A DNA stretch of 64,000 bases from Eledone cirrhosa (lineage: Eukaryota), in assembly GCA_964016885.1 (NCBI GenBank), contig OZ024751.1:11594001-11658000 (forward strand). Direction: 5' to 3'. The position numbers and the translations under genes are program-made. Positions 5,702-45,963 of this stretch are shown one piece after another (the stretch's first letter is position 1; every line of letters begins with the position of its first letter). The notes below the pieces were generated by a model. It did not search any database. It had not been told where the DNA came from and saw only the letters and a program-made list of their open reading frames with translations.

Positions 5702-5875
5702 GAAAATGTTTAATCCTGACGGCAGAGCTCAAGCCGTTTCGACGGCTATTTCTGGACTGAGTCCAGAAATAGCCGTCGAAACGGCTTGAGCTCTGCCGTC
5801 GGGATTAAACATTTTCCTATTACCCACTCTACCCTAAGTATTGAGTACTCTGGTGCAGTATGGTCCATCTTCATT
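5702..5875 (+). mobile_element. Family A palindromic element in (TA)n
   Basis: 56-bp arms 5702-5757 and 5761-5816 (1 mismatch), 3-nt loop, unpaired 3' tail shared with other family A copies, TA tracts on both sides. Confidence 0.85.
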
Positions 5876-7307: not shown

Positions 7308-7680
<373 letters not shown>

Positions 7681-12496: not shown

Positions 12497-12692
12497 ATAG
12501 GAACCAGTAAGACCCCGACAGCTGAGCTCAAGCCGTTTCGACGGCTAATTCTAGAATGAGAATTAGCCGTCGAAACGGCTTGAGCTCAGCTGTCGGGGTC
12601 TTACTGGTTCCTATTACCCACTCTACTACCTCAAGTATTGAGTAATTTGGTACGTTATGGTCCACCTGGTTCCTTACCACATTTCCTTCGTT
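12497..12692 (+). mobile_element. Family A palindromic element in (TA)n
   Basis: 56-bp arms 12497-12552 and 12559-12614, 6-nt loop, 3' tail ending catttccttcgtta. Confidence 0.9.
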
Positions 12693-22120: not shown

Positions 22121-22310
22121 AACGAGTAGGACCCCGACGGCTGAGCTCAAGCCGTTTCGACGGCTAATTCTGGAGTCCAGAATTAGCCGTCGAAACGGCT
22201 TGAGCTCAGCCGTCGGGGTCCTACTTGTTCCTATTACCCACTCTACTACCCTAAGTATTGAGTACTTTGGTGCGTTATGGTCCACCTGGTTCCTTACCAC
22301 ATTTCTTCCG

Positions 22311-23085: not shown

Positions 23086-23802
23086 CTATCTATCTATCTA
23101 AGGCGGGTAAAATTCCCGAGATCCATGGACGAGTTCTCTCCAGCGGTCTCTGTCCCTCATTATCGCTGCCATATCCTGCATCTCAAACAGACCAGTGTCT
23201 GTCCTTAGGGCATCAACATACGTTAACCTTGGTCTTCCTCTTCTAGTGTATCCATGTAGGGGCTCCCAAAGGAGCACTGAGTGCAATGTCAACTCTGGAA
23301 GTCGGTGAGCATGTCCAGCTAACCTCAGTCTCCTCTGTGTCACTTTTGAGCTGACTTTTGGGAGGCTCCCTTACGGCTCTGAGTTATTCATCCTCAGTGT
23401 ATACTGATTAATGTTCAGAGCCATCCTCAGCATTCTCGTGTAGCACGCATCCACCATATACAGTGAAGGAGGCAGAGGATTGATGCGGGAGGTTGAGACT
23501 GTGTCGATGAGTGTGGTTCTGAGAATGAATGAGACGAAAACAAAATATCTGGTAGAGAATGTTGAGAAGCCAGAGGGGATCACTAATGTAGGCGGGAAGC
23601 CGCTGGAATTGGTTGAGGACTTCCTGTATTTGGGAGCAAAGATTGGGAATACGGAAGATGATGTGGTTGAGAGGAAGAGCAAGGCCTGGGCGGCGTGCCA
23701 CAGCTTGAGATCGGTGTGGAAGTCGGACCTTCGTAGAGACCTGAAAATCCGCCTCTTCATTGCTGTAGTGGAGTCTGTGCTGTTGTATGGGTCTGAGACT
23801 TG
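23086..23802 (-). mobile_element. RTE-clade LINE with inverted 5' segment (twin-priming structure)
   Basis: Minus 23086-23459 encodes VDACYTRMLRMAL..RRLRLAGH with (taga)n tail; plus 23460-23806 encodes upstream RT region NETKTKY..FLYLG..LLYGSETWT; 11-bp TSD gacacatacat at 23075-23085 and 23803-23813. Confidence 0.9.
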
Positions 23803-24282
23803 GACACATACATATATGTGTTCAAATCGTAAGGGGCCAGATTCGCTAAGGTGAAAAGGATACTAACTATAGATAATACGGTTTACCTGACTCAAATTAA
23901 GAATAAATCAAGAAAATAAATACAAATCGGAATTGTGGTAACTGCCAATCACCCAGACAGCTTTTTGGTACTGCTGTTTCGTAAAATTAATTGTGGATAG
24001 GAATGCCAATTCTTGCTCATCAGTGGGTGAAGAATTAGTATCCTAGACACTTCTAAATATATTAAGTAACTGAATAGTGTGCCTATATATAACAACGCAC
24101 ATGGTATCTGAACTTAGCGCGTCTCACAAACTTACACCACTAAAATTAGCAGCCAGGTTTATTCAACATTTGAATTAGTTCAACAAATTAACGGAGCCGA
24201 ATATATCAAAGGTATATATATGGTCCCTTACGATTTGAACACATATATGTATATATCGGTGTTCGTATTTCTTTTATATTCA

Positions 24283-27229: not shown

Positions 27230-28620
27230 TGGTATAACTGAGCTTTGCAGCCTCCGTCTTGGACGTGCGGTCCATTCTCCGCTAGGTTCAGGTGACACCC
27301 AATGAGGATGTCCTCATCCACAGGTCACCGATCCACCCGCCGGCCATCCGCTCCACCATCAGGTCCAGGCTTCAACAGCACCAGACTCTCACGAGCCGAC
27401 TGGGCTTGATTGACGGCCAGCCAGCTCTCTTTCTGCTGAGGAACTGCTTCGCCATGCCGAAGCTCCTCTATACACTCCGGAAGGGCTCCGTGCTATACCC
27501 AGACATCTCTCCTCGCTGACGCGATACTTGTATCCGAGCAGCAGCGGAGGAGATATACAACGTCAAGTTTGACGACATAGGGTGGCAACAGGCCACTTTA
27601 CTTGTCAAGTATGGCGGCCTTGGCCTGCGGTCCCCGATCTCACTAGCTTTGCCGGCGTATCTTTCTCGGTAACCTCGTGCCGCGTCCTCGTCAGAGGGTT
27701 CTTCAAAACACAACGAACCCTCTGTGTTCAGAGGACGTGACGCCGCCTGTGAGTCGTGGGACCGACTGGGGCTTAGCCCAGTAGACGTTCCTCCTCCCGC
27801 TCCCCCTGTTGACATCAAGTCCCCACAACGCACGTGGGATGTCATCCAGTGCAGCTTGGCCTCAGAGAGGCTCAGGCGCCAGCTGGACCAGCACCGCCTT
27901 GCTTGTTTTCCTGCGGCCTCTAAACCCCACAGTGGTGCCTGGCTCCATGCCCTGCCCTCCTTCTCCACTGGCATGCAGCTAGACAACCATAGCCTGCGCA
28001 TCGGCGTTTCCCTGAGGCTCGGCCTCCGGATCTGCAAGCCACACCAATGTCGCTGCGGTTCCACCGTGGACTCTTTCAGACTCCACCCGCTTTCCTGTCG
28101 CCACAGTGCCGGCCGCATTCCGCGCCATGCTGCCCTCAATGAGGTCATTAAGCATGGCTTGGACGCTGCAGGCTTCCCTTCCCAGCTCGAGCCGGTGGGG
28201 CTGGATCGAGGGGACGGCAAAAGGCCAGACGGCAAAAGGCCAGACGACATGACCATCTTCCGTTCCGCGGTGGCAAACCCCTCGTCTGGGATGCGACTTG
28301 CACCGACACTTTCTGCAGCTGGAACCTGGTGCAGTCTGCGACTGACCCAGGTTCTGCTGCACGCCGGGCTGAGGGGGCCAAATTCCTCAAATACCGGTCG
28401 CTCTCCGACAGGTTTGCGGTCGTACCCCTGGCAGTGGAGACTTCTGGTGTCCTCGGCCCCATGGCTACCTCCTTACTCACCACCATGGTCGCTGAGCTGA
28501 CCAGCCGTAGGTGTGAGCCCCGCGAGCTGGAGTGGCTTTTCCAGCGCGTCTCCGAGGAAACACCTTCATTCTGTCCGCCGGGGCTGTGGGTGGGCCCCAT
28601 CGCGTACCGTTGTAGTTGCT
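27230..28620 (+). mobile_element. CRE-like non-LTR retrotransposon 3' portion with restriction-like endonuclease (pseudogene)
   Basis: LLRNCFAMPKLLYTLR; HSGAWLHALP..LRLGL; CRC..H..SC zinc knuckle; RHAALNEVI; KRPD; AEGAKFLKY..VPLAVETSG; stops and frameshifts; GC-rich. Confidence 0.85.
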
Positions 28621-28867
28621 GTAGAAGAAACAGGAAGACAACAACTGGAAAGTTTGATTTTCTACGTAATATGTAGTCTTCATCTTTCAGTTCCTCTCCT
28701 TTATCCTAAACTCTAATTACTCCAACAAAGTTATGTTTCTATGGAAGCAAACTATTACTAAAACATCTTAATGGCTTTAATTGACATTAAATGTCAAGTA
28801 TCGAAATATGGGAGGTGAATTAACAGAGTGCAAAATAAACTTTAACGTTAGCATTCACACTTTAGCG

Positions 28868-30650: not shown

Positions 30651-31449
30651 GAGGTGTGTCAGAAAGATTACAGGACTGATGTCACAAAATATTTATTTCA
30701 AACCCAAACTTCACACTAAGAGTTTTCTCCTTCAAAGTAATCATCCAGGAGTCTAATGCACTTTTCCAGCCTTTTCTGCCACGCTTGCATGCACTCCTGG
30801 AAGAATTCTTCCGGGATCCTCCGCAGTTCCACCATCACGGTCTTTTTTATGTCGTCCACGTCTTCAAAACGGGTCTCCTCGGGTCGTACTCGAAGATCAA
30901 TGACTCATCACCGGCGATGACTGTCCCTAGCAAGTCTGGTTCGGCTTGAAGACGCTCGAGGATGTCCTGGTACACTTGTATTCTGTTCATCGTTCAGCAG
31001 TTTTGGCACCATCTTCGCGCAGACTTTCCAAATCTTCAGTGAGAATCTTCCAGACGCTGTGCCGATTCATGCCCAGGTCATTTGCTATGAGTCGAACAGT
31101 CAGCCGACGATCGCTACGCACCATCTGCCTGACGCGCTCAACCTTGACCTCAGTCCTGGTTGTTGAGGCCTACACTTGCAGCAGCAATCCCAGTTCCTCT
31201 GACGGAGTTGTCCCCAACGGTAACAGAAACTTCAAGTGTGTTCGTTGCTCTGTGCTCATTGCTTGACGACCTGAAACAGAGGACATGTATATAAAATTAT
31301 GAAAGAAAAGTTTGATCGCTGCAGAGAGCTAAGATTACAGTTACATATTCCAGGGAGATTACTTTGAAGGAGAAAACACTCAGTGTGAAGTTTGGGTTTG
31401 AAATAAATCTTTTGTGACATCAATCCTGGAACATTTCTGACACACCTCG
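30650..31449 (-). mobile_element. Non-autonomous mariner with ~100-bp inverted ends
   Basis: TIR cgaggtgtgtcagaaa / tttctgacacacctcg with TA flanks; minus-strand transposase remnants VRSDRRLTVR, VITGDES..YDP, WQKRLEKCI..DYFEG. Confidence 0.9.
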
Positions 31450-43914: not shown

Positions 43915-44587
43915 AAAGGTAAACAGAAATAACAATACAATCGATACAATATATGGAAGGGATATATTAGGTTAACGCTTGATATGGCAGGAAGAGGGTC
44001 TTAACGTTTCGGACGCTATTCCTTCACGAGAAGAAAGAATGAGAAATAAGATAGATTGAGGGGACTGCTAGGATGGAATTAAAAAAAATGTCTTTAGATA
44101 AAAATAAGAGGTCCATTCACGTTGACATTTCTTACACACACACACGCACACACACAGATATATATATATATGTATTTATTTATTCAAGTAGAGAAAGTTG
44201 GTTGATTGAAAATCTACGGACTTTTAAACAACAATTTTATCCGGAGTTTTATTATAATAACTAGACCACATGTGACCCGTTGGGTCACGTTCCCTGCAAA
44301 TTATTTGTCAAAAATCATGTTCACTTAAGAATAATTTTTCAATAATTAAAATATCACATTGTTGCAGCTCCAGATATATGTATGTATATATATATATATA
44401 CATATATATATATACAATAAATAAATAAATTTATTTAACTGCTCTGTAAAACAACTGATGTTCATACATTGAGCTATTTCTCTTACTGGTAATAAGGTAA
44501 TTAAGAAATTACTGACCTTCCTATTTATAGTTGTTTATACTATATACATAACTATAAATATTATTATTATTATTATATATATATATA

Positions 44588-45139
44588 TAAGTACAGCGAA
44601 CTTTTTAAAATTTATTTTAAATCTTTTTCTCTATTTGCTAAACCTTGATGTTATATGTTCTGGCTCGTTTATTTATTAACCTGCCATAGAACCACATTGG
44701 CATACGATTGGATAATACTTGTGTCCCTCTATGTATTTTTTACACGTAGGAACACATACTTTATTATTATTAATCTCCCTTGAGGTTGAGATAACATTAT
44801 GGTCGTTTGAACTGCTGCTATTTCTAGTGGGAGTACATTGACCTGCCCACCCTGCCTTCTGTCTTTACACACGGCACTAGACAAAATTGGTTCCTTCCTC
44901 ATTCACTCTCATCCGGTAGCAGTTTTGTATGGCGCCAGTTTGTGATTTGAACTCGGGAATTTTATATTCTCCGAGCGAGAAAAACCTTCTGACGAAAATC
45001 CCTTTCTCAATGGTGGTCCGCATGGGTTGTCCATTTATTTTGGGATTTGAAACCGCGCGCTAAGTGTTCATATAGTAAGTACAGCGAACTTTTAAAAATA
45101 TATATTAAATCTTTTTCTCTATTTGCTAAACCTTGATTT

Positions 45140-45143
<4 letters not shown>
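44588..45143 (+). mobile_element. Family C element: 488-bp unit with terminal redundancy, in (TA)n
   Basis: 44588-44656 is repeated at 45076-45143; one HHR immediately upstream of the second repeat. Confidence 0.85.
44983..45069 (+). ncRNA. Type I hammerhead motif (family C)
   Basis: aacctt-CTGACGA(44989-44995)-AAATCCC...GGGATTT-GAAA(45049-45052)-ccgcgcgc-TA(45061-45062)-agtgtt. Confidence 0.7.
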
Positions 45144-45225
<82 letters not shown>

Positions 45226-45364
45226 CGCTGTACTTAATATATGAACCCGTAGCGCGCGGTTTCAAATCCCAAAATAAATGGATAATCCAGGCGGACCACC
45301 ATATTTCAGTCCAGAAATAGCCGTCGAAACGGCTTGAGCTCTGCCGTCGGGGTCAAACATTTTC
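45226..45364. mobile_element. Head-to-head chimera of family C (minus, 45226-45302) and family A (plus, 45303-45364)
   Basis: Left part is the reverse complement of 7378-7453; right part matches 5761-5816; TA on both sides. Confidence 0.85.
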
Positions 45365-45383
45365 ATATATATGTATATATATT

Positions 45384-45760
45384 ATGTCAGGTCGCCAGTT
45401 GGTGCTACTGGTAACATGTATCCCAGTACAACCTGTCTCATGGTCGGACGGTTGGCGACTAAACTGGCAAGCCCACCAAAGTTTCTTGGTGAGGAGGGTG
45501 ACTTTGGACATCCTGCAGGACTAAAACAAAACCTGTCAAAGGGCAAAGGAGCTCTTAAGAGTCAATGACCATCCAAAATCACCGGGAGAGATGACCCCTT
45601 AGCCTTTGTCAAGGCAGAATTCTAGGAGAAGGAAAACTCTGATATAACACCTGCAACCCTGATGGTATCCAATGACGTTGACTTGTTCTTCTTTTTGGTA
45701 AATACAATCTTGGATAAGAGAGTGGGACTGGCTTTGTGCAATGCATTTGCTCACTATAAA
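45384..45760 (+). mobile_element. Probable RTE-type LINE 5' UTR fragment
   Basis: ggagaaggaaaactctg motif of the kind seen in RTE 5' regions; 3' part shared with 33313-33360. Confidence 0.45.
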
Positions 45761-45761
45761 A

Positions 45762-45963
45762 GCAGAGCTCAAGCCGTTTCGACGGCTATATCTGGACTGA
45801 AATACCGTCGAAATACTGAAATACCGTCCAGAAATACCCGTCGAAACGGCTTGAGCTCTGCCGACGGGGTCAAACATTTTTCTATTACCCACTCAACTAC
45901 CCTAAGTATTGAGTACTCTGGTGCGTTATGGTCCATCTGGTTCCTTACCATACCTCCTTCGTT
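45762..45963 (+). mobile_element. Family A palindromic element with rearranged centre
   Basis: gcagagctcaagccgtttcgacgg / ccgtcgaaacggcttgagctctgc; centre has duplicated actgaaataccgtc; family A tail. Confidence 0.85.

What the first reader, a model, noticed from the sequence alone, without database searches (positions are those of the whole stretch)
44588..45143. Circularly permuted 488-bp monomer-plus whose 5' end lies 13 nt after the predicted HHR cut
Seen: the insert begins with taagtacagcg..., which recurs at 45076, only 13 nt downstream of the predicted cleavage after 45062. No ORF is present. Across three copies stem I reads GAACCTT/AGGGTTC as consensus, and stem II is AAATCCC/GGGATTT around a ~39-nt loop. 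Inference: the template RNA started at an HHR cut and was longer than one unit, as expected for reverse transcription of a tandem or circular self-cleaving RNA.
Basis: partly seen in the sequence, partly recalled or inferred. Interest (0 to 1): 0.75.

Follow-up and report, generated by a model that had tools for sequence, protein, structure and literature searches.

The report
Penelope-inserted hammerhead retrozyme copy
This is one cut-short copy of a non-coding, ribozyme-bearing 489-base repeat present at well over a hundred places in this animal genome; its copies start at random points rather than at the predicted ribozyme cut, end at two fixed sites and read cleanly across the cut, so a Penelope-type jumping-gene enzyme likely copied them from a circular or multi-unit RNA.

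Summary
The sequence observation holds: a 69-nt terminal repeat, a 488-nt period and a type I hammerhead motif whose predicted cut lies 13 nt before the repeat. The interpretation half fails. Across all 117 arms found by two exact 3'-end patterns, 5' ends ignore the cut (1 within ±3 nt, 1.7 expected). The 3' ends are what is fixed, at cut+75 and cut+188, running into (TA)n. Copies often form head-to-head pairs (32 of 38 pair one end type with the other). They cross the cut without scars (6 of 197, 7.3 expected). Repeats and arms of one insertion share rare variants. A younger 483-nt sister family forms arrays of up to 10 near-identical units with the same ends. This is a metazoan non-LTR retrozyme with a Penelope-element insertion footprint; the template was longer than one unit, most likely a circle. 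The window copy has one mutated hammerhead and cannot release a monomer itself. No autonomous partner was found; expression and cleavage are untested. The scan has noted other retrozyme families of this kind in this genome. New member of a known kind.

The parts
44588..45144 (+). Main retrozyme arm, 1.14 units; 5' end at cut+14 abutting (TA)n, 3' end at site 1
44588..44656 (+). Upstream copy of the 69-nt overlap; shares the rare A>T at cut+48 (6 of 237) with the downstream copy
44753..44762 (+). Site 2 (cut+188, CACATACTTT), the family's second fixed 3' end; read through in this copy
44984..45067 (+). Type I hammerhead motif: stem I 44984-44988/45063-45067, core 44989-44995, stem II 44996-45002/45042-45048 with hairpin extension, GAAA 45049-45052, palindromic stem III 45052-45061 (G>C at 45060), predicted cut after 45062
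45076..45144 (+). Downstream copy of the overlap, holding site 1 (cut+75, about 45137), the inferred reverse-transcription start
45145..45224 (.). (TA)n target tract between the two arms
45225..45302 (-). Short inverted arm (cut+437 to cut+25), tail-to-tail with the main arm; shares two rare variants with it (G487C, A6T)
45303..45365 (+). Arm of another abundant (TA)n-embedded two-armed repeat ('family A'), joined head-to-head to the short arm
7308..7508 (+). Independent family copy, 5' end at cut+368, 3' end at site 1 into (TA)n; lacks the rare variants of the 44.6-45.3 kb arms

Best explanation
This is a 5'-truncated genomic copy of a non-coding 489-nt hammerhead-bearing repeat (a metazoan non-LTR retrozyme), likely inserted by the reverse transcriptase and GIY-YIG endonuclease of a Penelope-like element (PLE) copying an RNA longer than one unit, most likely a circle. 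Steps: (1) Inferred: a copy with two hammerheads is transcribed, self-cleaves as a dimer through the palindromic stem III, and the monomer is ligated. (2) Shown as a footprint, enzyme inferred: (TA)n is nicked and cDNA starts at one of two internal sites, cut+75 or cut+188. (3) Shown: cDNA runs through the cut site without a scar and stops at random. (4) Shown: many insertions have two arms joined head-to-head, usually one from each site, and the arms share rare variants; inferred: both were primed on one template. Here an arm from site 1 ran about 550 nt and stopped at cut+14, which creates the 69-nt overlap. The hammerhead sets the unit, not the insertion ends.
For: Fixed 3' ends: 26 of 29 distinct insertions picked by a hammerhead-only query end at site 1 (22) or site 2 (4); 202 of 229 pooled unique arms do (that pool includes sets chosen by their 3' end). 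Random 5' ends. Of 53 head-to-head pairs, 38 have both ends at fixed sites: 32 site1+site2, 5 site1+site1, 1 site2+site2. Partners of site-2 arms are 16 site 1 and 1 site 2; partners of site-1 arms are 7 site 1 and 13 site 2 (p=4e-4). Repeats within an arm diverge 7.5% vs 9.8% between arms (lower in 40 of 48) and share 54 of 400 rare-variant observations vs 9.4 expected. Paired arms share 96 of 349 vs 8.6. No upstream/downstream bias of variants (39 vs 35). No scar at the cut (6 of 197 vs 7.3). Sister family: 465 exact two-cut matches; in 20 loci chosen mostly for long arrays, up to 10.1 units, 0.13% within vs 6.3% between arrays, same two ends, 12 of 13 pairs site1+site2. Hammerhead: core 85-100% conserved per base; stem I A-U 111 / G-C 32; stem III palindrome ACCGCGCGGT becomes ACCGATCGGT in the sister. 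Circular fold z=-4.6, reverse strand -3.9. Autonomous RT+GIY-YIG PLEs of this genome also end at two fixed sites in (TA)n. Literature: two internal RT starts, AT-rich targets, both strands cut and extended, HHR cleavage dispensable in vitro (PMC11167929); retrozyme circRNAs with PLEs proposed as mobilisers (PMC7229834).
Against: No autonomous PLE sharing this unit's sequence was found in 80 PLE-bearing loci or by a profile search of 1.44 Mb of held loci. Two apparent PLE-retrozyme chimeras are later insertions. In family C itself no array with three cut sites turned up (4 and 13 two-hammerhead matches, none consecutive), and the longest arm is 857 nt. Several sister arrays have units identical to those of other arrays, so a homogeneous linear multimer explains within-array identity as well as a circle does. 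Gene conversion between nearby repeats could add to shared variants. Rfam does not recognise the hammerhead, the covariation reflects few lineage events, and the stem II extension pairs only 83% of cells on one shared structure.
Confidence: 0.68

Rival explanations
1. Same PLE-driven insertion, but the template is an uncleaved linear multimer transcribed from a homogeneous tandem copy; no circle is copied.
For: HHR cleavage was not needed for insertion by an Anolis PLE in vitro, and unprocessed RNA was the main substrate (PMC11167929). Sister arrays share identical units across loci. The two neighbouring window arms share a stem III-breaking variant, so an impaired hammerhead may have been mobilised.
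Against: A purely linear lineage can only shorten, and family C shows no array beyond two cut sites (exact patterns, lower bounds). No variant is specific to upstream or downstream repeats. Rare variants sit in both repeats of one arm.
Confidence: 0.24
2. One reading: the RNA's 5' end is made by hammerhead cleavage, as in R2 elements, and reverse transcription ran to or near that end.
For: The window copy starts 13 nt after the cut. Site-1 arms show a slight excess within ±20 nt of the cut (12 vs 7.1, p=0.05).
Against: 1 of 117 ends lies within ±3 nt of the cut; the stop rate after the cut equals background; 77 of 85 site-1 arms read through it.
Confidence: 0.03
3. Linear cut-to-cut monomers are copied, with the RT jumping from the 5' end of one monomer to the 3' end of another.
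For: It would also give more-than-unit copies from fixed internal starts.
Against: Jumps should leave indels or stops at the cut (inference); neither is enriched. Repeats of one arm share rare variants.
Confidence: 0.03
4. A DNA-level satellite or local duplication with no RNA step.
For: Tandem units and nearby repeats can be made and homogenised by recombination; no RNA evidence was available here.
Against: The copies are dispersed over many contigs with fixed 3' and random 5' ends in (TA)n, the polarity of target-primed reverse transcription. RNA structure is conserved with compensatory changes.
Confidence: 0.02

Closest known systems
Metazoan non-LTR retrozymes (Cervera and de la Pena 2020, PMC7229834: passages and Discussion read; Li, Clavereau and Pollet 2026, 10.64898/2026.07.22.740005: parts 1-3 of 5 read)
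   Same: Non-coding unit, low GC (39%), one type I hammerhead per unit, monomer-to-multimer copies, co-occurring with PLEs. Both papers propose PLE mobilisation; the first proposes a circular template.
   Different: The unit (489 nt) is longer than the roughly 300 nt typical in the first paper but within the 51-972 nt of the second. Stem II carries a long hairpin extension and Rfam misses the motif. In the parts read, neither paper maps insertion ends, paired arms or shared variants. No pLTR homology to an autonomous PLE was found here, whereas 24 of 57 Xenopus families match known TEs, nearly all PLEs.
EN+ Penelope-like elements: Poseidon of Anolis (PMC11167929, parts 1-2 of 4 read); PLE structure in PMC8557442, PMC3846280 and PMC4209133 (passages read)
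   Same: Two internal RT start sites giving a 'tail' at one end, 5' truncation, an inverted 5'-truncated copy joined head-to-head, partial tandems, AT-rich or (TA)n targets, and a hammerhead with palindromic helix III.
   Different: No ORF. The tail is 113 nt rather than 30-40. The whole unit, not just a pLTR, is repeated.
Plant LTR retrozymes (as summarised in PMC7229834 and the 2026 preprint)
   Same: Non-autonomous, hammerhead-bearing, circular RNA intermediate proposed.
   Different: They have type III hammerheads in fixed LTRs with 4-bp target duplications; here the hammerhead is type I and the terminal repeat has no fixed length.
R2-type elements with a 5' self-cleaving ribozyme (recalled, not read here)
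   Same: A ribozyme within a TPRT-mobilised RNA.
   Different: There the cut defines the 5' end of full copies; here it does not.

Membership tests
Metazoan non-LTR retrozyme | Type I hammerhead motif in each unit | tested here: met
   Core, stems I-III and compensatory changes; 67 of 155 complete motifs intact; no Rfam hit
Metazoan non-LTR retrozyme | No protein-coding capacity | tested here: met
   Longest Met-to-stop 58 aa in six frames of the circular unit
Metazoan non-LTR retrozyme | Tandem copies with two or more hammerheads | tested here: met
   Family level only: 5 of 85 site-1 arms span two complete motifs, 13 two-cut matches, sister arrays to 10 units. The window copy has one.
Metazoan non-LTR retrozyme | Low GC and no fixed LTRs | tested here: met
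   39% GC; the overlap length varies with the random 5' end. PBS and PPT were not searched.
Metazoan non-LTR retrozyme | Self-cleavage of the RNA | not testable with these tools
   Needs an in vitro assay
Metazoan non-LTR retrozyme | Expressed as circular RNA | not testable with these tools
   Needs RNA reads or a northern blot
PLE-type insertion (non-autonomous) | Two fixed 3' ends with a tail at one end | tested here: met
   cut+75 and cut+188
PLE-type insertion (non-autonomous) | 5' truncation and inverted head-to-head copies | tested here: met
PLE-type insertion (non-autonomous) | AT-rich or microsatellite target | tested here: met
   TA-rich flank after 115 of 144 site-1 and 43 of 58 site-2 ends, 4 of 27 others (pool partly chosen by TA patterns); also seen in the hammerhead-only set
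PLE-type insertion (non-autonomous) | Sequence shared with the pLTR of an autonomous PLE | tested here: inconclusive
   None in 80 PLE loci from three protein queries; the genome's PLEs were not surveyed fully
Autonomous Penelope-like element | ORF with RT and GIY-YIG domains | tested here: not met
Plant LTR retrozyme | Type III hammerhead in fixed LTRs | tested here: not met
   Type I topology; variable 5' end
Elements with a ribozyme-defined 5' end (R2-like) | 5' ends of copies pile up at the cleavage site | tested here: not met
   1 of 117 within ±3 nt

The most novel reading that the evidence does not exclude
A dimeric Penelope protein loads onto one circular hammerhead RNA at two sites 113 nt apart, primes both sides of a break in (TA)n, and rolls round the circle from both. 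The conserved cut+31 to cut+150 module is the loading signal of a clan of 478-489 nt retrozymes that have no pLTR-sharing autonomous partner.
Probability: 0.4. Interest if true: 0.7.

Novelty: new member of a known kind. Interest (0 to 1): 0.45.

Why it matters
How animal retrozymes get back into genomes is proposed (PLE enzymes, circular template) but not shown in the papers read. This family and its very young sister give genomic footprints that fit the proposal. They also give exact coordinates for a bench test: two start sites, a conserved module, and intact hammerheads. The site1+site2 pairing with shared variants offers a concrete explanation for the PLE 'tail at one end'. The specific claim given to this stage, a ribozyme-defined 5' end, is a coincidence.

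Tried and rejected
(1) 5' ends set by the hammerhead cut: rejected. Ends altered by later insertions (for example L013, L062, L070, L217) were not removed from the 117. (2) PLE-retrozyme chimeras at L052/L275 and L013 as proof of a partner: rejected. The PLE parts are 0.5% and 1.1% from their family majority, whereas the retrozyme repeats differ by 6.2% and 5.4% within the arm. (3) A-to-I editing scars: pooled A>G exceeded T>C 1.39-fold, but among rare variants the rates were equal (0.0083 vs 0.0089, p=0.49), and shared template variants were 15 vs 14; not supported. (4) Search for an autonomous partner: negative within the loci held. (5) Rfam: no hit at gathering score in the window and no hammerhead family up to E 5 on L002 and L339. 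(6) No RNA holder listed. (7) Logan contigs (one sample, kind not on record) confirmed majority bases at 45060, 45065 and 45068; their depth was not used as copy number. (8) 120 kb of arbitrary genome held 0 copies. (9) repeat finder was swamped by microsatellites. (10) No pile-up of arm lengths at 113 nt and no correlation between paired arm lengths (rho -0.09). (11) Five answered paper searches listed no paper whose title or abstract start maps retrozyme insertion ends; PMC13282606 has no main-text mention of ribozyme or retrozyme. No supplements were read; those of the 2026 preprint and of PMC7229834 may bear on novelty.

Full report
Observation. The window is G000:C11:11594001-11658000 of a 3.0-Gb animal genome. 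The insert 44588-45144 lies between (TA)n tracts. Its first 69 nt recur 488 nt later at 94% identity. A type I hammerhead motif has its core at 44989 and GAAA at 45049, with a predicted cut after 45062, 13 nt before the repeat. There is no ORF. The window copy has G>C at 45060 and G>T at 45065 and only one hammerhead, so it cannot release a monomer.

Family. DNA searches returned dispersed copies on many contigs. The majority unit is 489 nt and 39% GC, with 34 aligned rows 89-98% identical to it. Two exact patterns for the 3' junctions gave whole-genome counts of 85 and 32, with 0 for the reversed controls. All 117 were fetched and traced. Of 16 site-1 partners of site-2 arms, 3 carry the exact site-1 pattern, and 3 of 13 in the reverse comparison; this suggests roughly 450 site-1 and 140 site-2 arms, a rough estimate.

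Ends. The 3' ends are fixed at cut+75 (site 1) and cut+188 (site 2). With a hammerhead-only query, 26 of 29 distinct insertions end there. The 5' ends are scattered: 1 of 117 within ±3 nt of the cut (1.7 expected), 7 in +1..+20 (4.8 expected), and a stop rate of 0.0031 per base after the cut against 0.0034 elsewhere. The 13-nt offset is therefore chance.

Template longer than one unit. 77 of 85 site-1 arms read more than 10 nt past the cut, 19 exceed one unit and 13 cross a second cut. A cut-to-cut linear monomer would cap them at 75 nt. Crossings carry no indel scar (6 of 197 vs 7.3 expected). Duplicated stretches within an arm are closer than stretches between arms (7.5% vs 9.8%; 40 of 48 arms) and share rare variants (54 of 400 observations vs 9.4). 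The window copy shares one such variant in both repeats. Variants show no upstream or downstream bias (39 vs 35). Family C itself showed no three-cut array, and its longest arm is 857 nt.

Two arms. Among 229 unique arms there are 53 head-to-head pairs, mostly joined with 0-3 nt overlap. Of the 38 with both outer ends at fixed sites, 32 pair site 1 with site 2, and the pairing is non-random (p=4e-4). Paired arms share 96 of 349 rare-variant observations against 8.6 expected. At the finding itself, the inverted arm 45225-45302 lies tail-to-tail with the main arm across 81 nt of TA and shares two rare variants with it (3 of 202 and 5 of 203). The same event with outward-facing nicks is the likely reading; later gene conversion is not excluded.

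Sister family. Loci fetched for other reasons held a 483-485 nt relative, 80% identical overall but 26-29 of 30 per 30-nt block over cut+31 to cut+150. It has 465 exact two-cut matches. Twenty loci, chosen mostly for long arrays, show up to 10.1 units, 0.13% divergence within and 6.3% between arrays, the same two ends, and 12 of 13 pairs site1+site2. Some arrays share identical units, so this does not separate a circle from a homogeneous multimer. Its stem III palindrome changes on both sides, and 90.4% of cells pair on the hammerhead structure across 40 sequences, above all slid controls; relatedness inflates such counts. Rfam finds no hammerhead here.

Partner. Young autonomous PLEs with RT and GIY-YIG domains end at their own two fixed sites in (TA)n, about 40-50 nt apart, which serves as a positive control for the footprint. 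Two fusions of such PLEs to family arms are younger than the arms and were rejected as co-insertions. No pLTR homology was found in 80 PLE loci or by profile search. The partner is unidentified.

Mechanism. Shown: fixed 3' ends in (TA)n, random 5' ends, scar-free reading through the cut, paired arms with shared variants, a conserved hammerhead. Inferred: PLE enzyme, dimer cleavage, ligation to a circle, both arms primed on one molecule. An Anolis PLE starts cDNA at two internal sites, cuts and extends both strands of AT-rich DNA, is predicted to be a dimer and does not need hammerhead cleavage in vitro (PMC11167929). Tails at one end and inverted 5'-truncated copies are known PLE features (PMC8557442; PMC3846280). 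Circular templates were proposed in PMC4209133 and PMC7229834, and a PLE origin of retrozymes in 10.64898/2026.07.22.740005. I put the circle at about 0.68 and an uncleaved linear multimer at about 0.24.

Negative results. An RNA-editing signature did not survive removal of shared variants. Expression and cleavage could not be tested.

Prior scan notes. Nothing lay near this place or matched this sequence, but the scan has described other retrozyme families of 310-601 nt in this genome with the same model. These are unchecked notes and are not counted as evidence.

Verdict. A real feature: a new member of the non-LTR retrozymes with a clear Penelope footprint. The headline claim about the 5' end is refuted; the longer-than-unit template is supported. 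Interest 0.45.

Noticed in passing
L282:41-690, L276:13-264, L339-L358 (e.g. G000:C1:149205027-149210846): Very young 483-485 nt sister retrozyme family with two-armed arrays of up to 10 identical units; the best material for bench tests.
   Followed up: yes
L208:1338-1518; L354:3663-4282; L277:6713-6789, L169, L241, L099: More distant relatives sharing the post-cut module (one with about 478-nt period), suggesting a clan of families.
   Followed up: partly
window 5743-5775, 12542-12569, 22161-22189, 32967, 45303-45365, 45740-45840: 'Family A': a very abundant short two-armed repeat with two fixed ends in (TA)n; joined head-to-head to a family C arm at window 45303 and in L228.
   Followed up: partly
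L275:4480-6665, L277:2454-5222, L091-L120, L285-L308: Young autonomous PLE families (frames of about 887-923 aa, copies 0.5-1% from majority) with a variant hammerhead core (TTGATGG) and two fixed ends in (TA)n.
   Followed up: partly
L276:1480-6830 (G000:C4:204.13 Mb): Tandem copies, 3017 nt apart, of a PLE-like element with intact 778-aa frames; clade not assigned.
   Followed up: no
L060, L062, L070, L186, L217: The same SINE-like element repeatedly inserted in family C arms, mostly at the ATT tract near cut+190.
   Followed up: no
window 31795 (-) and about 44005-44035 (-); L280 (5' of the L231 arm): Other hammerhead-like motifs of unrelated repeat families; in L231 one lies directly upstream of a family C arm in the same orientation.
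   Followed up: no
window 23444-23851, 27673-28673, 30931-31263: Open frames that look like LINE reverse-transcriptase and mariner-type transposase fragments (by recall, not scanned).
   Followed up: no
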